A stretch of DNA of 64,000 nucleotides from Octopus vulgaris (lineage: Eukaryota): NCBI GenBank assembly GCA_951406725.2, contig OX597814.1:116684001-116748000 (forward strand), read 5' to 3'. How positions within the stretch are numbered: the stretch's first letter is position 1; each line of letters starts with the position of its first letter. The translations under genes were made by a program, and so were the position numbers. A model generated the notes under the pieces. It saw only the letters and a list, made by a program, of their open reading frames with translations, was not told the origin of the DNA and did not search any database. Below, piece after piece: positions 2,230 to 61,576 of this stretch.

Positions 2230-3558
2230 TTCATTTCTTGAGGATAGATTTGAAAATAAAAACACTCGTTTTGTACTCGACTATGAAAATATATGTGGCG
2301 GAATTTATATATTAATACGCTTATACCGTCGGAGTTTATCACTGAAGGGAGATAAGTCAGGAGTAAATTTGAATTATTTCCCTTGGATTCTGGACTGGCA
2401 TTGTTACAATACTCTTGAATAGTGGTAAAACTCTTCACAGCATATTCAAGCTTCCAGTTCCTTTGAGTGAGAGAAGTTTCTGCAATGTTCCACCAAAGTC
2501 TGATCAAGGAAACATTCTGATGCGAGCGAAAGTCTTTATTATTGACGACGCTTCAATGAAACCAGTTTATGCTTTGAAAGCTATAGATAATTGTATAAGA
2601 GATATTATGAACAGTAATATTATATTTGGTGGGAAAATTATCGTACAAGGAGATTTTAGAAAAGTTCTTCCAGTTATTCCCAGAGCTCCTCCTGCAGCTG
2701 TACTTGATTTCTGCCTCAAACGCTCCTCTGTGTGGAATAAATTTCATGAAATGCAACTTATGCAACACATGAGAACAAATGCAAATGAACAAGATTTTCG
2801 AGGTGGCTACAACAACTTGGAAGTGGATTTCTTCAAAGCTCTCTTGATAATCTCGCAGAAGATATTATTGATATTCCTGAGGCATGCATATGTAACTGTT
2901 CTTTGGTATCTGATATATTTGACAATTGTACAGCAGAAGAAGTGAAAAATAGAATAATCTAATCCCTTAAAATTCGGACTGTTTAGCAGTAAATGAAGAA
3001 AGTTTAAGAAGATTGCCAACTGAAACTAAGCACCGACTCAGTAAATTCTGATAATGAAGAAGAAGCCCAGAATTATCCCATGGAGTTTATAAACTCTCTT
3101 ACACTTTCTGGAATGCCTCCCCATTACACTTATTAGAAACCTCTCTATAACACAAGGTCTATGCAACGGAACTCGCTTGGAAATTCTTCAGCTCCACAAG
3201 CATAGCATAGAAGCGTCAATTAAGTGGATCTCATTCTCACATGACAGTACTGATTCCAAGAATAAAACTTACTCAAAGCGATGCAAACATTCCATTCGCT
3301 TTGCATCAGACCCAGTTTCTCGTTTGTCTGTCCTATTCTATGACAATCAATGAAGCGCAGATGAAAACATTCGATAGAGTTGACATACACTTTTCACAGC
3401 CATGCTTCACTCACGGCCAGCTTTACATAGATTTTTCAAGGGCAAGGGCGATGAAGATGCGTGAGGGTTAAAGTGATACCTCAAAACGAACCCACTCATG
3501 GTCCCAGAAGGTGTATCACCTACACTAGGAACATTGTATATACAGGGAAGTGCTGTAA
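2230..3558 (+). pseudogene. Degenerate Helitron RepHel Pif1-family helicase (C-terminal part), with frameshifts and stops
   Basis: Motifs WTGIVTILLNSGKTLHSIFKLP, IIDDASM, FGGKIIV-GDFRKVLPVIPR, YPMEFINSL..SGMPPH, GLCNGTRL, VLIPRIKL, YSMTINEAQ, FTHGQLY..FSRAR, ending TRNIVY/YREVL* at 3558. Confidence 0.92.
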
Positions 3559-3603
3559 CTGTTGTATTTAACATATACTTTCACAGAATAATTTAATATA
3601 TAC

Positions 3604-3858
3604 TTACTCTCTTTACTCTTTTACTTGTTTCAGTCATTTGACTGCGGCCATGCTGGAGCACCGCCTTTAGTCGAGCAAATCGACCCCGGGACTTATTCTT
3701 TGTAAGCCCAGTACTTATTCTATCAGTCTCTTTTGCCGAACCGCTAAGTGACGGGGACATAAACACACCAGCATCGGTTGTCAAGCAATGCTAGGGGGAC
3801 AAACACAGACACACAAACAGCAAACACAGACACACAAACAACAAACACAGACACACAT
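3604..3858 (-). mobile_element. tRNA-derived SINE family A, 3' part (no head)
   Basis: Matches the longer copies at 20343-20741 and 31646-32040 (ttgactgcggccatgctggagcaccgcctttagtcgagcaaatcgacccc). Confidence 0.85.
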
Positions 3859-3959
3859 GTTAATAAATATAACATAAAGGGTAATAGAATTTTTCATTAA
3901 CCAAAATAGTACCAAATTTAACAATTTTAATTACATTATAACTACATACTAGACGATAT

Positions 3960-4700
3960 TTAAATTGTTCATAAATCTGTTCAAGTAGAGAGCATATTAA
4001 ACATGCTGACCATGAAATCATTAATGATATACGATTAACCATTTTTAAAGGAATATACGTCTAAACCTTTTTTTAATGAATTGATTCTATGTTCAGTCCC
4101 TCGAATTCGGTGCGCCTGTATACTTGTTGAAGTAGTTTGTCTTTAGAGTCCGCTTACGGCGTGAAGCTTTACTTATAATAATAGCCTTCATATAATAACG
4201 TATTTCATATATAAAGAATAAACTTATATACTTTGTATTAATTGTTTTCCTTAATTGGATTTACACGCTGGCTGCTTAATAAATATATCTTATCCTTATA
4301 TTTTATTTATAAATATTAAAGCGGAATAATAACAGTGCTGAATTATTTCGGTTACACACACATGGCTGAGATGAACAAGACAGAAGTCCCTTTCATGGAT
4401 ATATAAGTACGAACATTTGTACATGCTCTACTACATACGAAATGCTTGTATGGTATGTATAGCTGTTTAATATTTATAGTTTCGTGCATATGTTCGTACT
4501 GATGAGTGGAGAGCATGTCATATATGCTGACCATGAAATCATTAATAATATACGACTAAACCTTTTGTAAGGAATTTCTTCTATGTTCATTCCCTCCAAT
4601 TCGGCGCGTGTGTATACTTGTTGAAGTAGTTTGCCTTTAGAGTCCCCTTGCAGCGTGAGGCTTTAATTATAGTAATAGCCCTTGATATAATAATTATACA
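3960..4700 (+). repeat. Direct repeat (~3987-4197 vs ~4508-4692) with an HHR motif at the start of each copy; candidate retrozyme
   Basis: Shared atgctgaccatgaaatcattaat...tatacttgttgaagtagtttg..tttagagtcc; the GAAA boxes at 4014 and 4535 are 521 bp apart. Confidence 0.85.
4494..4555 (+). ncRNA. Type I hammerhead ribozyme, intact core
   Basis: Stem I tcgta/tacga; CTGATGA 4499-4505; stem II gtgg/ccat with inner agcat/atgct; GAAA 4535-4538; near-palindromic stem III ATCATTAATAAT; cleavage triplet AUA. Confidence 0.8.
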
Positions 4701-4873
4701 TATATAATTTAGAGACACACCGCTATTTAGTTATTCAATTTAATTGTGAAAAGATATCTATAATAACCACATAGAAAATAATTAAATAACTTATAATTAT
4801 TATTCTAAAAATCTCATAGTAAATCAAACAGTTTGTCTCCAAATTCTCTCTCTGTCTCTCTCTCTCTCTCTCT

Positions 4874-4910
<37 letters not shown>

Positions 4911-4911
<1 letters not shown>

Positions 4912-6361
4912 TAGCATTATGACCCGTCGTTGCCGGGTCATAGTGCTAGTGCATGTATATATGTGTATATATATGTGTACTTATTACATGTACATCTATA
5001 TATATACATCTCTTTCTATATAAACGGTAGTTTGTCTGTCTGTGTATCTGTGTGTCTGTCAGGTTGTACCCTCACCCTGACCAAGTTCTGAAAAAAATCG
5101 ATAAATTCGACATGGGGTCGAGAATCAGAAACACAAACCACAGACTGTCTAGGGGACGCAACTCGACCTTTTTAACTGTCAAAAAAAATTTACCATAATT
5201 TTTTTGCTATTTTTTGGCTATAACTCTCTAAAAATGCTTTATAGTTATTTCCCTTACAAACCCGAGCAACGCCGGGCGATACTGCTAGTCTACATATAAA
5301 ATACAAAATACAAAGCTATATCTTGATATCGCTAGTGATAACAATACTCAAAATATATAACAGACTGGAATTGTAAACCCGTCTCTTGCAATTTCGATCA
5401 ATTGTATCTTGACCTCCCTCTTGTATAGAAGTATGGCTACAATCCAGCCTACCTCTACTGCTGGGGAAGAGGCATTTTAAATTTTTATCCGGGACGTCCT
5501 ACGTCCAGATATAAAGGTAAAAATAAAATATTTCCACTTTGCAAGTTCGAGTCGAGTACTCCCTTGCACGCTCCGTTGACTCGAACCTCGCTCCTATCGT
5601 GGCCAATTTGCCGCCTCTGTTTAGATATCTTTCATAGTTGCACCAAGACACTTTTCGATGGCGCTTTCCTCCAGGTGTTCAGATCTTTTTCTCTACATTG
5701 TATACTTTATAGACAATAGTCTTTTCTTTAATTAAATTTTTTATTATCAATCTGGACTATTCCATTTCTGCACGCTAATTTTATTTTTAATTTATTCGCA
5801 TTCAGGTGAAACCACTTATTCAAGTTCAAGTCATTGATGCAATTTTATACCAATTGCTATTTTTACTTTTGTTATGTTACGATTATATTATACTTTAGTT
5901 TGATTTTAATTATTACTTACTACATATAATTCAATTGTTATTATTATTCTTATTGTTAAAGTGAAAGCATCTGACATAAAATACAGAAATGTTTTTGTTT
6001 CACTTTTAACACGTACTACTGAAATAGTGGAGAAGATATGATATTGCTATGGGCTCGCTCTAGGCAAGAGGTTGAACATTTTTTTTTGCCCATGAAACTA
6101 CATGGACCCTAAGTAAGGCATGTGTAAAATTTGAATGGAATTGGTTGTGTAGTTTTCAAGCTTTAGGGAATCGTAGTGGAGAAAATATGATATTGCTGTC
6201 CCCAGGCAAAAAGTTAAAATATTTTGGCCGATGACACTCCCTGGACCCTAAGTAAGGCATGTGTAAAATTTGAATGAAATTGATTTTGTAGTTCTCAAGG
6301 TTTAGGGAAACACACAGACAGACAGACAGACAAACATTCTCAGTTTTATATATATATAGAT
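4911..6361. mobile_element. Nested non-autonomous Helitrons: a + copy at ~5016-5288 and a - copy probably running from 6360 to 4911
   Basis: 5' ends TCTATATA...GTCTGTCTG at ~5016 (+) and 6360 (-); 3' hairpin+CTAG ends at 5260-5288 (cccgagcaacgccgggcgatactgctag) and 4911-4948; internal duplication 6025-6170/6174-6310. Confidence 0.75.
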
Positions 6362-9218: not shown

Positions 9219-9741
9219 TAGTCATACGATATAGAGAATATTTAAACACATGAGGAATCCACTTGTAGGAATTCAACATGCTAGAAAAAACAGCTACGTT
9301 CTATAACCTCAAAAATTAGGGATAAAATTCGACAGGAACGAAATGAAAAATAAAAAAAACATTTTACCATCTAGTTTCCTGGATCAGTTGGTTTCTGATT
9401 TTAGCTAAGCGAGTCAAGGAACTCGCCAGGTGCAATCTTCTTCAGCAGGAGCACCTAGGGTTAAACGTAAACACACAGGTCGATCAAAACTCCTTGCCCC
9501 GTATTTATACGTCCTAACCTTTTCAAAATCTACTGCGCAGCCGCAGTCCTTCGTTGGCAATAAAAAAAGCAATTCGTCCACGAAACTAGATGGTAAAATG
9601 TTTTATTAATTTTTCATTTCGTTTCTGTCGAATTTTATCCCTAATTTTTGTGGTTATAGAACCTAGCTGTTCTTTCTAGCATATTGAATTCCTATAAGTG
9701 GATTCCTCATGTGTTTAAATATATACTATATCGTACGGCTA
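9219..9741. mobile_element. MITE with ~165-bp terminal inverted repeats in TA context
   Basis: 9219-9383 is the near reverse complement of 9577-9741 (atttaaacacatgaggaatccactt...cattttaccatctagtttc). Confidence 0.85.
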
Positions 9742-15834: not shown

Positions 15835-17250
15835 CATCATCATCATTGTTCGACCGTGGTCGAGACAATGGAATTTACCATGCTACGCCAGACTTCACGG
15901 TCCATCATGGCATTACAGAGGTCCTGTTGCTGGATGCCTGTATCCCTGGAGATTACATCAGGGTAGGAGAGTGTGCGCCCTCTGGTATTGCGAGTAGATG
16001 GCCTCCAGAGGAGAAGAGTAGAAATTACTTCTTTTTCAGCTCTACAACAATGTCCAGCAAACTGGACTCTCCTACCTTTCACAAGAGATGACACAGGTGG
16101 TAGTTTCCCATATATTTGCATTTTGGTTGGATGGCGCTTCCACGAGAGGTTTTGAGCTCTCATAAGGAGGCGAGTGTAGGTTCCATCCAACCGCCTCTCA
16201 AGCTTCTTTGATAACGTCCAGGTTTCTGAGCCATATAGTAGAATTGGTTCGACTGTGGCTTTGAAGATTTCAAGTTTGAAGTCTCTACTTAGATTTGATG
16301 ACCAGATCTTATGCATGTAATTACAGGCTGACCAGGCCACACCCTTTCTTGTTAGAAAGTCTTTTCCAGATGATGATATGTATGACCCAATATATTTATA
16401 ATCAGAAACCATATTTAAGAGCGCATTGTTGAGAGTATGGATGATGCAATCACTTTTGGACAGGCACTTGTTTATGTATTCAGTTTTGGCCTCATTGAGG
16501 TAAAGACCTATACAATTTGAGGCTTGTTCAAAAGATTGTAAAAGAGACTGGGCATTGGAGAGAGAATCAATGATAAGTGCGATGTCGTCAGCAAAGTCAG
16601 TGTCTGTCAAGTACTCAGCTGGGTGTCTGGAACTTCTTCTTGGTTTTATTTTAAAGCCCTTGCCAGAAATGGTATCAACTGACATACGTAGCACATAATC
16701 AACAACAATGATGAAAACAAATGGGGCGAGCGTGTCTCCCTGCAGTATTCCGGTTTTGATTGAGAAAGATGATGTTTCTCCGTCAGGGGTTAAGATGGTT
16801 GAAGACGTATCTGTGTAGAAGACCTTGATGGCAGAAATGATTTTGTCTGGTATCCCATAGAGCTTAAGGATTTCAAACATCTTGTACCTATCTACAGAAT
16901 CGAACGCTTTAGAAAAGTCTACAAATACCATTGCAAGATCGCAATTAAATGCTTTTGATTCTTCAATAAGTCTGCGTAGGCATAGTATCTGGCTCAGCGT
17001 TGAACGCCCATGTCTGAATCCATTTTGGTTCTTTCGGAGCAAAGGTTCAACAAAAAGGACAAGACGATTTAGGATCAGTTTGTTGTACAGTTTTGCAGCA
17101 ATTGACATTAGAGATATACCCCTGTAGTTAGTGACGAGGGATAAATCGCCTTTTTGGGGTATTGGAATGATTTGAGATTGGTGCCAAATCTTTGGAGCAA
17201 CAAAGGTGGAAAGTGTGTGGTTGCAGAGGTTGAGCAAAAGTGCGTGAAAT
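15835..17250 (-). mobile_element. 5'-truncated RTE-clade non-LTR retrotransposon with (GAT)n tail
   Basis: Open 464-aa RT ORF; tail at 15835-15845; possible imperfect TSD tgaaaactt (15826) / tgaaatctt (17245). Confidence 0.92.
15843..17237 (-). CDS. RTE LINE reverse transcriptase (ORF2 C-terminal part, uninterrupted)
   Basis: NYRGISLMS, QNGFRHGRST, FVDFSKAFDSV, GILQGDTLAP, DFADDIAL, YKYIGS, LLYGSETW. Confidence 0.92.
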   Translation of the reverse strand: MLNLCNHTLSTFVAPKIWHQSQIIPIPQKGDLSLVTNYRGISLMSIAAKLYNKLILNRLVLFVEPLLRKNQNGFRHGRSTLSQILCLRRLIEESKAFNCDLAMVFVDFSKAFDSVDRYKMFEILKLYGIPDKIISAIKVFYTDTSSTILTPDGETSSFSIKTGILQGDTLAPFVFIIVVDYVLRMSVDTISGKGFKIKPRRSSRHPAEYLTDTDFADDIALIIDSLSNAQSLLQSFEQASNCIGLYLNEAKTEYINKCLSKSDCIIHTLNNALLNMVSDYKYIGSYISSSGKDFLTRKGVAWSACNYMHKIWSSNLSRDFKLEIFKATVEPILLYGSETWTLSKKLERRLDGTYTRLLMRAQNLSWKRHPTKMQIYGKLPPVSSLVKGRRVQFAGHCCRAEKEVISTLLLWRPSTRNTRGRTLSYPDVISRDTGIQQQDLCNAMMDREVWRSMVNSIVSTTVEQ

Positions 17251-17464
17251 CTTACAGCTTTGGATTTGTTATCTCATTCTAATATATATAAATTCTCTAA
17301 GGGAATGAAAAATAAAAATAAGAATATAATAAAAATAAAAAAAAATATTGTTCATTCACTTCGAGAATTTATCCCTAATTAGGGATTTGGACTTTAGCTG
17401 TTTCTTCTAGCGTAAGGGAGTCCTATGATGGATACCTCTTAATGTGTTTAAATGTACACTGTAT

Positions 17465-35480: not shown

Positions 35481-36662
35481 GGATATCTAGAGATCAGTCT
35501 GTATCGTAAGGTTCTAGAAAGATATGGCAGCCCTTTCTCCCTCTACATAGAAAACAACTGGAAGAGATACCTAGATGACTGTTTCATTCTTTGGCTTGAA
35601 AATATAGAGAAACTCAAAGAATTCCAAGCAATATTAAATGGACTGGACGTAAACATTCAATTCACGATGGAATATAGCCAGCAACAACTTCCCTTCCTCG
35701 ACATCCTCATTAAGAAATCTAATAATGTAATAGAAACAGATATATACTATAAGCCTACAAATTCCAAGCAATATCTACCATTCACTTCATGCCACCCAAG
35801 ACACACCAGAATGAATATCCCCTTCAATCTAGCAAAAAGGATATGTACTATAGTTTCTAATGCAAACACCGGAGACACACAACTACATGAACTAAAAGAT
35901 ACCCTCAACACCAGGAACTACCCACCTTCACTAATTGACATATACATTCAACGTGCCCTTCAACTCAACATCCAGGAACTCAGACATCCCAAATTAAAGA
36001 AAAGTTTACGACCAAAAGCCTTACCATACATCTCCACACACAACCCTCTCAACAATGATGCCTTCGACACCATCCTCCAAAACATACCCCTGCTGAAAAA
36101 AGACCACAGAATGAATTTAATCCTCCAAACAATGAATTTAATTCTCATAAAAAGCAAGAGACAGCCCAAATCTAGGAAAAGACTCCTAACACAAGCCCGA
36201 ATACGCTCATCAACACAGAAGCCGACAGTAAAAAAATGTGGAAGACCCAATTGCGGGATATGCGATTATCTAATTGAGGAATCAGAGTTCTCCTTCAAAC
36301 AGGGACAACGGTTCACAGTGAAAAGCAACTTCACATGTGCTTCGGAGAACCTGATATACACACTAACCTGCTCTGGGTGTCAAGAGCAATACATAGGCCA
36401 AACAAAAAATAGTTCACGTAAAAGAATGGCCCTGCACAGATCCCAGATAAAAATTCCCCAAAACAGAAAAATAGCATTCAGCCAACACAGATATTTGCGC
36501 CAACAACAAAACTCCAAGCTTCAGGATTTTCCCCTCTACCAATTCAGGGACGCCACAACCTCGCGCCAACGAATAAGTAAAGAAACTCTCTTTATTACAA
36601 AATACAGACCCCTTCTGAACGCATCGACGACAAACGATATATCCACCTCGGCTTTAGAATAA
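35481..36662 (+). pseudogene. PLE RT C-terminal half plus GIY-YIG endonuclease (inverted segment)
   Basis: GYLEISLY...WKRYLDDCFILW, LPFLD, YYKPT, SCHP, KCGRPNCGIC, NLIYTLTCSGCQEQYIGQT; the reading frame is open from 35481 into ORF 35667..36662. Confidence 0.92.
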
Positions 36663-39034
36663 CACAAATACACACGCAAATATTACATTCCTTAGAATCC
36701 ATTAAAAATCAACCCCAATCACAGCTATAACCCACAACGTGCCAACTTTAAGTCATTCAACATCCCACTACTTCCACGCATTCATATTCTCCCTTCTCTT
36801 TCTTCTTCTTCTTCTTTATCTTCTTCTTCTTCTTCTTCTTCTTCTTCTTCTTTTTCTACTACCTCTTCTTCTTCTTCTCCTTCTTCATCATTATCATCAT
36901 TGTCATCGCCATCGTCAGGATCACCTTCTTCTTCTTCTTCTTCTTCTTCTTCTTCTTCTTCTTCTTCTTCTCCCCTCTTCTTCCTGACTTTATCACTGAT
37001 GCTTTTTAGTATAATACCTACTCAAATACTATAAACAAACCTTTCAATAGAAATATTTTCATGAATTGAACAGCAGGAACTGCTAGCAACCACTGACCAA
37101 CGACAATCAAGGCAATCCCAAATCCTTCCTTCCCTTCTCCCCTGTATGGGGTTAACATGGAATTTAGATCCCTCATTATTTTTTGTTGACTGTAGTTTTG
37201 TGCCTTTTCATAATATGTTGTGTCTTCTAACATAGATAGTACTAAAGTTATGTAAAATACCGTGTCCATTAAGACAACTGCGCTCCCTTTATCTGCCTCT
37301 TTGACCGTAATTGTTTTGTCATTTTTTTAATTTGTTCAGCTCAGACCATTCTTTTTTGCTGAAGTTTGGTTTGTGTTTTTGTTTGTGCATATGTTGATAT
37401 GGGTAATTCCATGTGTTCACAGAAATGATCAAGTGTTTTGTTCTTACATTTTGAGGGGGTGTAGTTACCCCTATTTCTGACCAACGATTCGTCCTCGTTG
37501 TATTTGTCATATAGCTCCTCAGTAAGTCGTAATTTTCTACAGAATTCTGCGATGTCTTCTTTCATTTCATTGTAGTTGGGGTGTTGTGGGGTGGGTGTAA
37601 ACTTGAGTCCTTTGGAGACTATATTTATTTGGTTTGCCGTTAGTTCGTTGTGAGTTAGATTGATAATTGTTATCACTTTTGGTTCCTCCTGCCTGTTTGG
37701 TGCTATCTTGTGTCTCTGTGTTTGCGTAGTGGGTCTAAAAAATGAATGCAGTGGTTGGGACGGTAGCCATTATATAGTTGTTCCTTGTCGATGTGGGGTG
37801 TTCTGTGGTGTGTGTTCTTGGAACAGTATTGAGAAGTGCGTCACGATATCCCATATTCGGGTGTGGTGTTTAGGAGGCCTTCGTTGGTAATCATTGCGAG
37901 TGGTGCGGGTTTGTTGTGCATGGTTGTTTGGCACGTTGTTGGAACGAAAATTTCGTTGGTAACTCTTTTGGGTGGGGAGGAGGTTGCAGCGTCTATCCTG
38001 TGGGTATTGATTTATCCTTTCTCTGTTTGAAGTGAGGGCATTCCTGATATTGTATCGCTGGTGGCTTGCAAAGTTAGGGTTAGGTCCTGTATTCTTTTTT
38101 TGATAGAAGTGATGGTTCCGATTTTTAGACAGGTGTATATCAGTGTTTGCATGTTGTTTTTATTTTTTTATTTTCTGGAAAGGATTGGTGGAAGCGTGCT
38201 CTGTTTGAAAGACGGTTTCATAGTTTGAGAACCAAGTGGCGCTTTTCTCCCAGCGTTGGAGAGATTTCAGTTCTTCTTTTTTACAGTCCTCTTTCCATAG
38301 TTTGGAGATCTTCTTGGGTCATTTTGCGAATTTCTTGGTTGATCTCTTCATCGGTGGATTTTACATTATCCTCATTTGTTTGGGCCCTCAATTTTAGAAG
38401 TTCTATTTCCATTTTCATTTTTTCCAGTGCCATTTTCTCCCTGAGGCGTCTTTGTGTTTCAGGTTCCTCTGTAATGGTTTTGATCTGGAATTTACGTGGG
38501 AGGATTAACAGTGTCCGGTTGAGCCATTTTTCGTATATATCCGCTTTGTTGTTGTTTTGGATCACCTTCCAAAAGGCGAACTTTCTATCTCTGAGTGATT
38601 TGTTCCATTGTGGTACTATGTGGTGTTTAGTTTGGTATGTTATTTGAGTATTGATCCCATATATTGACGCGTTTGGAGGTCCTTGGTTAGCGTTGTTAGA
38701 GAAAAATGCTTTAATTGTTTCGCATAAGTTTCCAAGGTTTTCGACGATTTCGGAGGTTGTATTTTTTTCGTATCGGTTTCCTCATTGTTCACTCGATTGG
38801 GTTGATGCGTCGGGTCGAATTTCTTCAAAAATGTTGACAGATTTGTGTTGATCTTCTTGAGTTCTTTCAGTATTTCTTCATTTATGGAAGTGATTGTGTC
38901 TGTTTTTGTCGGCATTTTCTGTATATCGTGTGGGTTAATGATATGTATAAGGATGAAAAGGGACACACGAGTTGATATATATGAAAAAATAAGTCAAGAT
39001 AGAAAATGCTAAAATAATTTTATAAAGAACATTT

Positions 39035-47103: not shown

Positions 47104-47144
<41 letters not shown>

Positions 47145-47602
47145 TTAGAGATAAAACCACTATTAGGCAAATCAAACAGTGAAAAACATAAACCAAAACA
47201 TAGAAATAAAATTAATTAATTAATAATAACAATAATATAATATATTATACAAAATATATAAAATACAAAATTCAAATTTAAATTATTTAAATTTAAAGTT
47301 AAAAATTAAAAAAATATTCAAATTATTAATTTATACTTATAAATTTTTATATAAATATATGTAAATATTTATTATTTTTTATTTTTATTTTAAGTTTTTA
47401 TTTATTTAATTATATATTTATTAATTTTTTTATTTTTTAATTTTTTAGTTATTTATTTATTTATTTAAAAAAATTTATTTTATATATAACTATCAACAAG
47501 TATTAAAAAGTTCAATATAAGATAAAAAGTAAAACCACTACGATCGTTTCATGCCCCAACCCAATTCGAATAACAATAATTTAAATTCAAATAATAATTC
47601 GA

Positions 47603-48368: not shown

Positions 48369-49612
48369 TTATTGCTTATTTAGCTTGGGTTCGAATTTAT
48401 TAATAAAATTCTTTTCTCTGATTTTCCTCTCGATTTCACTTGGGCTGTGTAATTTGTAGAATGGAAATATTATATATATGTTCCAACCACATGTTGCTAG
48501 GTGGTTACTCAAAGGTATCTGACGGACCTCTGGGTCTCTAATCTGTTGCCGGTGTACACGTGAGCGTTCTAATAGTGCGTTTCCCGTCTGACCTACATAT
48601 ATTTCTTCACAATTTGGGCATTTGATGCAGTAAATTAAATTTCTGCTTTTGCAGTTCATATTCGCGTTTGTGAATATTTTCCCGGTTTTTGTGTTTATAT
48701 ATTGACCGGTATGTATGAATTGGCATGTGCCACATCGGCTATCATTGCATTTAGATACCGTGAATGTTTGGTCTTTGTTGCTGAGGTCAAATTTTGCCTT
48801 TGTTAGTAATGTTTTCAATTTTTAGGCTGTCTTTTACTAAGCACCATAGCTCGATCCGTGATTATGTCTTTTAATTCATTACTTTGGGCAATGATTGGTA
48901 GGTTTGCTTTGGCAATGTTGAAGATATTCTGGTGACATGGGTTGTGTGTCACTATGAATGGTATGACTTGTTCTTGGTTTCCTCTTCCTTGGGTTGTCCT
49001 AAGTTGTTGTATGGGTATTTTTATAGCCCGCTGTATGCCATTTTCTATAAGTAGAGATGGGTATTTTTGTTTGAGCAAAAATTCTCTTAGTTCTATTAGG
49101 CGTTTGTTCCTGATATTTGCATCTTCTACGATAGTACAAATTCTTCTGGCTAGGCAGTATGGGATGTTACGTTTTGTATGTGGTGGATGGCACGACTTAA
49201 AATTTAGGTATTGATGTGTGTCTGTGTGTTTATAGTATATATCTGTGGTGATGGTGGTGTCTTTTTTAATTACCATTATATCCAGGAATGGTAATTTGGT
49301 ACTACTCATCTCCTTTGTAAATTAGAGAGATGGGTGTAGGTTGTTCAGGAGGATATTGAACTCTTCCAGAGTATTTAGAGATTCTGTCCAGATTATGAAA
49401 CAGTCGTCTAGGTATCTCTTCCATGCCTTTTCAATATACTTTCTAAATCCAGTGCCATAGTTTACCTCCACCTCTTGGTAGAGTTGTTCTTCTAAGTATC
49501 CCATTACAGAGTTGGCGTAAACGGGAGCAAACCTCGTTCCCATCGCCGTGCCTCTAATTTGGATGTAATTCTTTCCATTGAAGAAGAATGTGTTATTTTC
49601 TAGAATAAGTTT

Positions 49613-49616
<4 letters not shown>
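48369..49616 (-). pseudogene. PLE RT plus GIY-YIG endonuclease (one stop at 49322, one frameshift at ~48817)
   Basis: GTAMGTRFAPVYAN, WKRYLDDCFIIW, LPFLD, SCHP, KCNDSRCGTC, NLIYCIKCPNCEEIYVGQT. Confidence 0.93.
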
Positions 49617-58631: not shown

Positions 58632-59129
58632 ATGATTGAGGTGACTATTCGCAATTTACAACCGAATGGCAACAAGTATAGTTGTCATTAAAATATGGGT
58701 GGGTCTTATATGCAGTAGCATTGCTAGGAATAAGACTCAAAACATTTCTTAACCACGTCATGGCACTTCTGTAACGACTGACAAGGGAGACAAGCTCCCT
58801 ACAGGAAGCGGTTTTAAATTGCGTGTAGTAACTTTAATAATCTATAATCCTCACTTCACCATTTTCGAAATTAATCGAGGTTTCCTCTCGTGTTCTCTAT
58901 AAGACTGACAATGTGAGTTATATTTTTTAAACCTCAGCGAAGGAGTAATGAGCCACTGACGAAGATCAATCAAATCTGAAATCGGCGCTGATATGACTCC
59001 ATCTTGCTAGCAGTAGGGAGCTTGTGAGTCGCAAGAAAAGTGCTCTGACGTGCTTAAGAGTTGGTTTGGCTCTTATATCTAGCAATGCTAGTGCTGGCTA
59101 GCACCCGCACTCCCTTTAGTGACGACTAT

Positions 59130-59206: not shown

Positions 59207-61576
59207 TTAACTTCCGCTTTCCATGGGTTGAACGGTTTGACTGAAAACTGTCAAGCCGGGAGGGTGCACCAGGCCTGAATCTGACCTGCCAAAGTTTCTA
59301 CGGCTGGATGCCCTTCCCAACACCAACCATTCCGAGAGTGTAGTGGGTGCTTTTTACGTGCCACCGGTACAGGAATCAGTTAGTCGGAACTGGCATCGGC
59401 CACGCTTAAATGGTGCCTTTTACGTGCCACCGGCAAGGGTGCAAGTGAGGCGGCTTTGCACCGACCACGCTCGAATGGTGCATTTTACGTGCCACTAGCA
59501 CAGTTTCCAAGTAGGAGGTACTGGCATTGGCCATGCTTCAGTGGTGCTTTTTTCATGCCACCGACGCAGGTGCCAGTCAGGCGGCACTGGCATCGGCCAT
59601 GAATACGATTTCACGTCTTCATCAGCTCGGCATATTGCCCGACGATTGAATTGTACTTTTATATGGGCCATTTATACGAGCTCATTTGGCTTGCCGCGTC
59701 TCCTGAAGCACTGCATATCGCCAAAGGTCTCTTGTAATTACGTCTGTGAGGCCCAACGTTCGAAGGCCGTGCTTCACCACCTCATCCCATGTCTTTCTCA
59801 GTTTCCCTCCACTCTTAGGGTGTGACACTTCTTCACACATCTGATCTCATCCATTCGCAACACATGACTATACCAGCGCAGTTGTCACTCTTGCACTTCA
59901 TATCTCGCACTTCCTATGTCCACCTTTTCTCACAAGGTGCTAATACAGTGTCGTGTATGCACACTGAAATTTCACATCCAGTGGACCATACTAGTTTCAT
60001 GTCTTTCAATCATGTCCTCAGCAGTTACAGCCCATGTTTCACTGTCGTGTAGCATGACTGTTCGCACACAGGTATCATACAGTCTACCGTTCACTCTGAG
60101 CGAGAGACCCTTTGTTACCAGCAGAGGTAAGAGCTCTTTGAACTTTGCCCAGGTTATTCTTATTCTAGCATCCACACTCTTAGAGCATCCACTCCTGCCA
60201 CTGACTTGGTCACCTAGGTAACGGAAGCTATCAACTACTTCTAGTTCTTCCCCTGGCATGTGATGGAATCTGTTTTCTCTACATGTTCGGTGTTAATTGC
60301 ACCTGTGCATATGCCACACAAAACACTAACTTCTCCGTTAAACATTCTTTGATATTGTTGCACCTCATATGTGCCCATAGCTTACACCATGTACACCTTA
60401 TGAAGTTTCTACCTACGCCTTTTCTACAGATCGAGTAGGGCCATCTACCTGAAGAGACTTCTGATTTGTCTGCCTTCCTACTTCTAAGACTTTGGTTTTT
60501 GCTTGGTTGATTCTAAGGCCCTACGATTCTAGACCTTGCTTCCACACTTGAAACTTCTCTATTTCTTGTAGTGACTCAGCTATTACAGCAAGGTTATCAG
60601 CATAGACGAGCTCCCAGGACATCCTGTCTTGAATTCCTCTATTATTGCCTGGAGGATTATGAGGAATAAGAGGGGACTATGTACTGATCCTTGGTGAAGC
60701 CCTGCTTCTATCAATAATGCTTCACTATACTCGTTGCCAACCCTCACCTTACTGAGAACTTCCTTGTACATGGCATGTATAGCTCTCACCAATCACTCAT
60801 CTGTCCCTAGTTTCCGCATTGGCCACCTGATAAGGGATTGGTGGACCCTGTCAAAGGCTTTCTCCATGTCAACAAAAGCCAAGTACAGAGGTTTATCTTT
60901 GGCTAGGAATTTCTCATGCAGCTCTCTTAACAGAAATATAGCATCAGCAGTGATTCTCCCTGACACAAACCCAAACCCTAATTAGTTGGGCTATGGTACT
61001 CCCCGTGACTTTCATCACCTCATCCAACAATTTGATACCTTTGTAGTTATTTCAATCTAATGCGACACCTTTACCTTTGTAGAAGTTGACTGTTGCTGAT
61101 ACGGTATTAATTAGGTATGACTTCTTCATGTATCACCTGGTTAAATATGCGGGCGACAAGATATAGCCCACATTGCCAGATATTTTAAGCAGTGATACTC
61201 CATAGGCCAAGGGCTTTCCCTGTTTTCATACCCTAATTGCGTTATCTAACAAGGTAGTGTCAATTCGAATGGCTGGTCTCTCGGTTGGGCCGACATTTGG
61301 CAGACTCTCTATTCATTCTCTTCATTTAGCAAACATTCGCAGTGGCTTCTCCAAGACTCTCTATTTGCAGCATCATTAAATGCAAGTGAGCCATCATCAG
61401 GACACATTTCTTTCCTATGACATCGCGATTTCCTCTCACACACTGTCTACCAATTCGAAATACTTCAAGTCTTTAGTGCTCACGATGCAGAACATTGGCA
61501 ATTATTTCTCATCTGCTTCTCCTCTGGCTGAGTAAACCTGTTTACTAGCTTCCGTCCTGGCGATCTGGTACATTTC

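What the first reader, a model, noticed from the sequence alone, without database searches (positions are those of the whole stretch)
3960..4700. Two hammerheads 521 bp apart in a direct repeat: a retrozyme-like monomer
Seen: HHR2 (4494-4555) has an intact core and a 5-bp stem I. HHR1 (~3977-4034) has a decayed CUGA box but a perfect ATCATTAATGAT stem III. Cleavage at both AUA sites would release a ~521-nt monomer. An 11-nt anti-stem (agtacgaacat, 4406-4416) is complementary to 4490-4500 and would sequester stem I and the start of the core. The GAAATC...GATA stem III layout and AUA triplet resemble the 58950 HHR and differ from the short PLE-type HHRs. Downstream 4705-4790 resembles the PLE terminus at 47141-47220. 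Inference: a non-autonomous, PLE-dependent circular RNA element.
Basis: partly seen in the sequence, partly recalled or inferred. Interest (0 to 1): 0.75.

Follow-up and report, generated by a model that had tools for sequence, protein, structure and literature searches.

The report
Decayed hammerhead tandem repeat, probable octopod
A 750-base non-coding stretch holds one and a half head-to-tail copies of a roughly 500-base repeat that carries a hammerhead (self-cutting RNA) motif and occurs in many diverged copies in this animal; it is likely an old, broken copy of a retrozyme, a known kind of small mobile element, and with one of its two ribozymes destroyed it probably no longer makes an RNA circle.

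Summary
The repeat and the downstream hammerhead are real. Copies 3956-4214 and 4470-4707 are 85.6% alike. HHR2 (4494-4555) is the window's only strict type I hammerhead hit (2 of 100 shuffles give one). Contigs from three DNA runs show a multi-copy, diverged family. Its majority letters restore helix III (a 12-nt palindrome) and helix II, and its pieces join into a closed unit. This is the genomic pattern of an animal (non-LTR) retrozyme, probably in an octopod.

The claim of a 521-nt monomer from this locus is not supported. HHR1 has lost its core and helix I arm, HHR2 has a helix III mismatch, and the ribozymes have diverged as fast as their flanks. The 521 includes a 26-nt insertion, so the family unit is nearer 495. 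The anti-stem exists and is predicted to pair. The PLE-like piece at 4695-4830 is a separate repeat in the opposite orientation, and no homology links the unit to the window's PLEs. Cleavage, circles and PLE dependence are untested. Verdict: a decayed new member of a known kind.

The parts
3956..4214 (+). Repeat copy 1 (broken hammerhead plus about 180 nt downstream), running on into the unique part of the unit
   Evidence: 85.6% identical to 4470-4707 over 229 aligned bases
3977..4034 (+). HHR1, broken: core and helix I 5' arm lost (8-nt deletion in the best alignment), two A.C mismatches in helix II; helix III palindrome 4017-4028, AUA 4027-4029 and helix I 3' arm 4030-4034 intact
   Evidence: same letters in contigs X2 record 9 (3883-4030, 0 differences) and X5 record 25 (3925-4319, 1 difference, 0 gaps)
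4027..4078 (+). Two adjacent 26-mers (17 of 26 alike); one is an insertion relative to copy 2, probably an old local duplication
   Evidence: absent from one family contig (joint 4038-4578 with 17 letters between, X4) and from the listed family pieces over 4496-4694, which have 1 to 9 gap letters
4215..4469 (+). Remainder of the unit, present once here; non-coding, 30% GC; shared with family copies over about 4192-4429, poorly over 4430-4488
   Evidence: (table 2)
4406..4416 (+). Anti-stem complementary to 4490-4500 (helix I 5' arm and first two core bases)
   Evidence: most family depth has two other letters (4409, 4410) that would give G.U pairs
4470..4694 (+). Repeat copy 2, ending at a TA-rich site (alignment runs on to 4707 through TA-rich letters)
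   Evidence: loose ends behind 4694 in 10 (X2) and 9 (X4) contigs continue like copy 1
4494..4555 (+). HHR2, type I hammerhead: helix I 4494-4498/4551-4555, core 4499-4505, helix II 4506-4534, GAAA 4535-4538, helix III 4538-4549 with one mismatch (4547), predicted cut after 4550
4695..4830 (-). Separate repeat that truncates the element; resembles 47141-47260, a probable PLE 3' end (inferred) read on the minus strand
   Evidence: listed pieces start at 4695-4706, one loose end before 4695 is microsatellite-like, depth rises in X4, X5 and X11

Best explanation
This is a 1.5-unit copy of a multi-copy, non-coding, roughly 500-base repeat with one type I hammerhead motif per unit, likely an old, decayed animal (non-LTR) retrozyme whose intact ancestors would have been cut from multimeric transcripts into unit-length RNAs, circularised and copied back into the genome by a borrowed reverse transcriptase. 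Shown: the repeat, the motif, the diverged family, the family letters that restore helices II and III, and junctions that close the unit. Inferred mechanism: (1) read-through transcription of a tandem copy; (2) two neighbouring hammerheads pair through their 12-nt palindromic helix III into a double hammerhead and cut after AUA (the palindrome alone forms no stable hairpin but a -11.4 kcal/mol homoduplex); (3) the monomer is ligated, and in the circle the anti-stem is predicted to hold the ribozyme off; (4) reverse transcription round the circle gives more than one unit, here about 1.5, starting about 75 nt upstream of the first cut site; (5) a Penelope-like element (PLE) is the likely helper, by analogy only. 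This copy then decayed, lost HHR1's core and was cut short or bordered by another repeat at a TA-rich site. It is predicted not to release a monomer.
For: Strict descriptor hit with 2 of 100 shuffles. 222, 241 and 108 contigs of three DNA runs lie on 3862-4840 at 80% or more; 114, 116 and 59 of them are under 90% alike (these counts include the two flanking repeats). At 4547, 20, 23 and 6 contigs carry G (depth 435 of 476, 1295 of 1449, 44 of 59), which restores the helix III palindrome. At 4523, 10, 13 and 4 contigs carry C (175 of 240, 539 of 816, 28 of 33), turning G.U into G-C in helix II. Depth steps up at the ribozyme: 28 to 338, 70 to 779 and 7 to 40 between bins 4456-4488 and 4489-4521, and no other letter in 4489-4522 is among the 40 rows shown (196 rows hidden). 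Listed joints lead from the repeat end back into the unique part (4694 to 4200/4214: 3, 3 and 1 contigs) and from the unique part into a hammerhead (4317, 4328, 4360 to 4489 or 4528; 4429 to 3988: 3, 7 and 1 contigs); 21 further joints are hidden. GC 31%, no ORF of 100 aa. Fold energies. PLE ORFs are present in the same window. Class features from PMC7229834 and bioRxiv 10.64898/2026.07.22.740005.
Against: No other locus was seen whole, so tandem arrays and the family period are pieced together from short contigs. The circle is not unusually self-paired (z -1.25, 58% paired), though published retrozyme circles are. No Rfam hammerhead model matches. G.U replaces the conserved G10.1-C11.1 pair, and no helix I/loop 2 tertiary element was identified. 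No target-site duplication was found. The unit is longer than the 150-450 bp of Cervera and de la Pena. In Li et al. only 1 of 9 predicted Xenopus dimers cleaved in vitro, so a motif does not prove activity.
Confidence: 0.7

Rival explanations
1. The unit is the non-coding terminal repeat (pLTR) of a PLE family, left as a partial tandem after truncated insertion; it moves as part of PLE RNA, and no free circle exists.
For: PLE insertions form partial tandems with a hammerhead in the pLTR (10.1101/2021.04.23.441226 passages). Short helix I and long helix II resemble PLE hammerheads (PMC4209133). Li et al. find retrozymes homologous to pLTRs, so the two readings overlap. 4368-4412 translates to a stretch like a PLE RT motif.
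Against: That stretch scores 1.5 bits; 13 of 500 shuffles and several non-PLE tiles score as high. No PLE ORF adjoins the element. The unit shows no similarity to five PLE-flank or hammerhead regions of the window or to its own left flank (12 comparisons, best 4 of 100 shuffles). The unpaired base after A9 and the G10.1-C11.1 pair of PLE minimal hammerheads are missing, and helix III is long.
Confidence: 0.17
2. A dispersed element with a single hammerhead (SINE-like or a solo PLE end) that was partly duplicated at this one locus by DNA-level recombination or slippage.
For: The two copies are only 85.6% alike, about as far apart as family members are from either. No array was seen. Copy 1 also holds a local 26-nt duplication.
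Against: Family contigs show junctions all round the unit, in both directions across the repeat, which a linear element with fixed ends would not give unless its ends lie in a part that was not resolved.
Confidence: 0.09
3. One reading: this locus is cut at both AUA sites and yields a 521-nt circle.
For: Both cut sites and both helix I 3' arms are intact. HHR2's catalytic half cofolds with HHR1's substrate half into a canonical hammerhead (-21.1 kcal/mol), so site 1 could be cut without HHR1's core.
Against: That cross-pairing has probability 0.00 in the whole 3960-4600 transcript. HHR2 alone folds best with its core mispaired (-16.1 against -9.0 kcal/mol for the active fold), and HHR2 with a second HHR2 does the same. 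One core cannot be counted on for both cuts. The ribozymes are not better conserved than their flanks.
Confidence: 0.04

Closest known systems
Metazoan non-LTR retrozymes (Cervera and de la Pena 2020, PMC7229834, parts 2-4 of 6 read, supplement not readable; Li, Clavereau and Pollet 2026, 10.64898/2026.07.22.740005, parts 1-3 of 5 read, supplements closed)
   Same: Type I hammerhead once per head-to-tail unit, non-coding, GC under 50%, many copies, co-occurrence with PLEs. The mussel hammerheads also lack the usual tertiary nucleotides, and some mussel circles are predicted to block the ribozyme.
   Different: Unit about 495-521 nt (150-450 bp in Cervera; 51-972 bp in Li). Helix III is 4 bp plus a palindromic tetraloop, against 1-2 bp in most animal hammerheads (PMC4209133). 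Helix II is extended by a 2x2 loop and 7 bp. Only one complete motif, so not 'active' by Li's criterion. No RNA evidence.
Hammerheads in PLE pseudo-LTRs (Cervera and de la Pena 2014, PMC4209133, parts 1-2 of 4 read)
   Same: Type I topology, 5-bp helix I without an evident loop 1, long helix II, palindromic helix III region suited to dimers.
   Different: No flanking RT-GIY-YIG ORF, no unpaired base after A9, G.U at 10.1-11.1, full helix III, no homology to the window's PLE flanks.
Plant LTR retrozymes (passages in PMC7761336)
   Same: Repeat-unique-repeat look at this locus; ribozyme predicted to be blocked by a complementary stretch in the circle.
   Different: Type I rather than type III hammerhead; no primer-binding site or 4-bp target duplication seen; the repeat is a partial second unit, not an LTR.
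Newt satellite 2 / axolotl HHR_Amex retrozymes (as described in PMC7229834)
   Same: Palindromic helix III and a predicted need for dimers; axolotl HHR_Amex2 tolerates a non-canonical pair at the base of helix II.
   Different: Those have 1-2 bp helix III, conserved tertiary contacts, 330-350 bp units and about 120,000 copies.

Membership tests
Non-LTR retrozyme | Type I hammerhead motif in the unit | tested here: met
   HHR2 by descriptor, 2 of 100 shuffles; family letters restore helices II and III; no Rfam model hit
Non-LTR retrozyme | Head-to-tail repeat of a few hundred bases | tested here: met
   1.5 units at this locus; junctions close the unit in other copies; 495-521 nt lies within 51-972 bp but above 150-450 bp
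Non-LTR retrozyme | Multimeric arrays or permuted copies elsewhere in the genome | tested here: inconclusive
   Only short contig pieces seen, 32 of 663 listed; no genome held
Non-LTR retrozyme | Non-coding, GC under 50%, multi-copy | tested here: met
   31% GC; no ORF of 100 aa; no significant PLE profile hit; 20-33 contigs with other letters at single sites in X2 and X4
Non-LTR retrozyme | Highly self-paired circular fold | tested here: inconclusive
   z -1.25 against 60 shuffles, 58% paired; tested only on this decayed copy
Non-LTR retrozyme | Self-cleavage and accumulation of unit-length circular RNA | not testable with these tools
   No raw RNA reads were offered; contigs cannot show ends or circles
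Active non-LTR retrozyme (Li et al. criterion) | Two consecutive units with complete hammerheads | tested here: not met
   HHR1 lacks the core
PLE pseudo-LTR | Flanks an RT-GIY-YIG ORF | tested here: not met
   No significant tblastn or profile hit in 3600-5400 with 120 PLE-like proteins; other loci not testable
PLE pseudo-LTR | Minimal hammerhead: unpaired base after A9, G10.1-C11.1, little or no helix III | tested here: not met
   against PMC4209133
PLE pseudo-LTR | Homology to terminal repeats of the host's PLEs | tested here: inconclusive
   None to the PLE flanks in this window; the other PLE families of the genome were not available
Plant LTR retrozyme | Type III hammerhead, primer-binding site, polypurine tract, 4-bp target duplication | tested here: not met
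   Type I topology; no primer-binding site by eye at 4205-4240; no duplication of 8 nt or more between the flanks, 4-bp duplications not searched

The most novel reading that the evidence does not exclude
Octopods carry their own hammerhead subtype: a 12-nt palindromic helix III, an extended helix II and an AUA site, seen here in two unrelated repeats (4494 and 58950). It would cut only as a dimer and be locked by an antisense stretch in the circle, as in viroids, defining a cephalopod retrozyme family with still-active copies that make about 495-nt circles. At this locus the disruptive lesions all spare one cross-paired site (HHR2 core with HHR1 cut site), which might still cut once.
Probability: 0.15. 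Interest if true: 0.55.

Novelty: new member of a known kind. Interest (0 to 1): 0.27.

Why it matters
Hammerhead-bearing tandem repeats are known from many animals, molluscs included, so a decayed copy is no surprise. The value is modest. I found no description of a cephalopod retrozyme in five paper searches; the giant squid genome paper lists 235 hammerhead 1 hits without describing them (PMC6962438, passage). The long palindromic helix III and the anti-stem give a direct test of dimer-only cleavage and of how an animal circle avoids recutting itself, which PMC7229834 leaves open. The family could also test the proposed PLE origin of retrozymes outside vertebrates, a gap that Li et al. name.

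Tried and rejected
No whole genome is held, so no genome-wide consensus was built. Rfam: no hammerhead hit. A longer antisense copy of the ribozyme in 4385-4445, which I first saw by eye, is not significant as an alignment (172 of 1000 shuffles), and its two extra helices have pair probability 0.00; only the 11-nt stem stands. A minus-strand hammerhead in the element: none. PLE RT remnant at 4368-4412: not significant. Pattern scans: 14 viral and 6 metagenome loci; none extends beyond 26 bases at the motif or forms helices I and II together, so all 20 were treated as chance. Expression: no RNA holder listed. One run guessed to be RNA (X11, 1 of 14 listed) gave 8 contigs, 3 of them on the element, 85-92% alike, depth 5-7, one over HHR2; these are other copies and may be DNA, so they say nothing on expression. 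Target-site duplication: longest flank match 7 nt. A relaxed descriptor hit at -60021 lies in the 59972-60292 ORF, which looks like a LINE RT fragment, and was taken as chance. Earlier findings: no look-alike by sequence, place or 'octopus'. The supplement of PMC7229834 and PMC5785218 could not be read; that supplement and the closed supplements of the Li preprint may list cephalopod or similar hammerheads.

Full report
Setting. The window is AT-rich (35% GC), full of microsatellites and transposon fragments. It holds PLE-type RT/GIY-YIG ORF remnants at 35484-36635 (+), 37126-37685 (-) and 48372-49615 (-). The best named relatives of the first are from Argonauta hians (53%) and Octopus vulgaris (64% over 56% of the query), ahead of bivalves. 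The host is therefore probably an octopod; this is an inference. No genome is held.

The observation. 3956-4214 and 4470-4707 are a direct repeat: 196 of 229 aligned bases are identical, with an 8-nt gap and a 26-nt gap. HHR2 (4494-4555) has a 5-bp helix I, CUGAUGA, a helix II of 4 bp, a 2x2 loop and 7 bp, GAAA, helix III and an AUA site. It is the only strict type I hit in the window; 2 of 100 shuffled windows gave one. It has G.U at 10.1-11.1 and a C.A mismatch at the third pair of helix III. Rfam's models do not detect it. HHR1 keeps a perfect 12-nt palindromic helix III, AUA and the helix I 3' arm. In the best alignment it has lost 8 nt covering three bases of helix I and five of the core. 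A second reading by eye gives a 5-of-7 box at 3977-3983 separated from its helix I arm; the core is dead either way. It also has two A.C mismatches in helix II. The cut sites are 521 apart, of which 26 nt are an insertion in copy 1.

The family. I laid 4 of the 24 listed runs on 3862-4840 at 80% likeness: three of the nine DNA holders and one of 14 runs guessed to be RNA. The locus itself appears in all three DNA runs with 0-2 differences over 148-485 bases, and two of them cover the HHR1 lesion, so it is not an assembly error. In all, 222, 241 and 108 contigs were laid, about half under 90% alike; these counts include the flanking repeats. The listed pieces of other copies have depths similar to the locus itself, which suggests an old, diverged family rather than a homogeneous satellite. 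At 4547, 20, 23 and 6 contigs carry G, restoring the palindrome. At 4523, 10, 13 and 4 carry C, making a G-C pair in helix II. Depth jumps at 4489, just before helix I, and stays near single-locus level over 3961-3993, so other copies resemble HHR2 and not the deleted HHR1. No other letter in 4489-4522 is among the 40 rows shown, but 196 rows are hidden, so an intact family core is likely and not proven. Joints lead from the repeat end into the unique part (4694 to 4200/4214) and from the unique part into a hammerhead (to 4489, 4528 or 3988). The pieces thus close into a circle. The 26-nt insertion is missing from the family pieces listed, so the unit is about 495 nt if the rest has the same length; no contig was seen that measures this directly.

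The downstream piece. Family contigs leave the window sequence at 4694 and continue like copy 1 (10 and 9 loose ends). Listed pieces over 4695-4830 start at 4695-4706. It is a separate repeat. It resembles 47135-47300 modestly (2 of 1000 shuffles; best non-self tile). That region lies about 1.1 kb downstream of a minus-strand PLE ORF, past a hammerhead remnant, and ends at (TA)n, so a PLE 3' end is plausible. It would then read on the minus strand, opposite to the ribozyme, and abut a TA-rich site; some PLE clades favour (TA)n. This reads best as an insertion into or beside the element and is no evidence that PLEs move it. The unit shows no similarity to the window's PLE flanks. A 15-codon likeness to a PLE RT motif at 4368-4412 is not significant.

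Folding. The palindrome alone forms no hairpin but a -11.4 kcal/mol homoduplex; HHR2's damaged version gives -1.8. HHR2 alone prefers a fold in which the core pairs with the helix III 5' arm (-16.1 against -9.0 for the active fold). HHR2's catalytic half with HHR1's substrate half gives a canonical hammerhead (-21.1), but these pairs have probability 0.00 in the full transcript. The anti-stem pairs at 0.55 in the linear RNA and 0.89 in the circle. Against its importance: an 11-nt complement arises in 3.1% of shuffles; helix I stays below 0.2 even when the anti-stem is left out; and most family depth has two other letters there, which would still pair as G.U if helix I is unchanged. The circle is not unusually stable (z -1.25). 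The ribozyme region differs between copies at 6 of 50 sites and the adjoining repeat at 16 of 115, so there is no sign of selection since the two copies arose.

Mechanism. Shown: repeat, motif, family, closed unit, lesions. Inferred from folding: dimer-type cleavage and an off state in the circle. Taken from the published model (PMC7229834): transcription, cleavage, ligation, reverse transcription round the circle, and PLEs as candidate helpers. A 1.5-unit insert that begins upstream of the first cut site fits copying from a circle or an uncut multimer. This copy is predicted to be inactive as a source of monomers.

Comparison. It works like, and has the testable genomic features of, an animal non-LTR retrozyme. 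It fails the 'active' criterion of Li et al., and cleavage and circles are untested. The pLTR reading remains the main rival, and Li et al. show that the two overlap. Unusual details are the 4-bp helix III with a palindromic tetraloop, shared with the unrelated 58950 motif, the extended helix II and the predicted lock. Five paper searches found no cephalopod retrozyme; supplements that I could not read may hold one. Papers seen: PMC7229834 parts 2-4 of 6; 10.64898/2026.07.22.740005 parts 1-3 of 5; PMC4209133 parts 1-2 of 4; passages of 10.1101/2021.04.23.441226, PMC7761336 and PMC6962438; others as listings only. The hammerhead numbering and the labels SINE and Helitron end are recalled, not from a call.

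Verdict. New member of a known kind, decayed at this locus. Interest 0.27.

Noticed in passing
window 58950-58999 (+): A second type I hammerhead, unrelated in sequence, with the same 12-nt palindromic helix III layout and AUA site; one C.A mismatch in helix I; single copy in the window.
   Followed up: partly
window 58421 and 32425 (+); about 39070, 47870 and 47545 (-): Short PLE-type hammerhead remnants; the minus-strand ones lie beside PLE ORFs.
   Followed up: partly
window 35484-36635 (+), 37126-37685 (-), 48372-49615 (-): Three broken PLE ORFs; the first two face each other across a (TTC)n tract; best named hits are octopod.
   Followed up: partly
window 4368-4412 (+): Fifteen codons resemble a PLE RT motif; 1.5 bits, 13 of 500 shuffles. 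Worth rechecking on a family consensus.
   Followed up: yes
window 3862-3940: Another multi-copy repeat directly left of the element (high depth); not identified, no similarity to the unit.
   Followed up: partly
window 2373-2945 (+); 4905-4950 and 5260-5290: PIF1 helicase fragment (Pfam PF05970), probably a Helitron; two hairpin-plus-CTAG motifs right of the element look like Helitron 3' ends (recalled pattern).
   Followed up: no
window 15843-17273 (-): A 476-aa open RT frame (PF00078), probably a LINE fragment.
   Followed up: no
window 9219-9741: A 176-nt inverted repeat, 90% complementary, with a 171-nt spacer; possibly a MITE.
   Followed up: no
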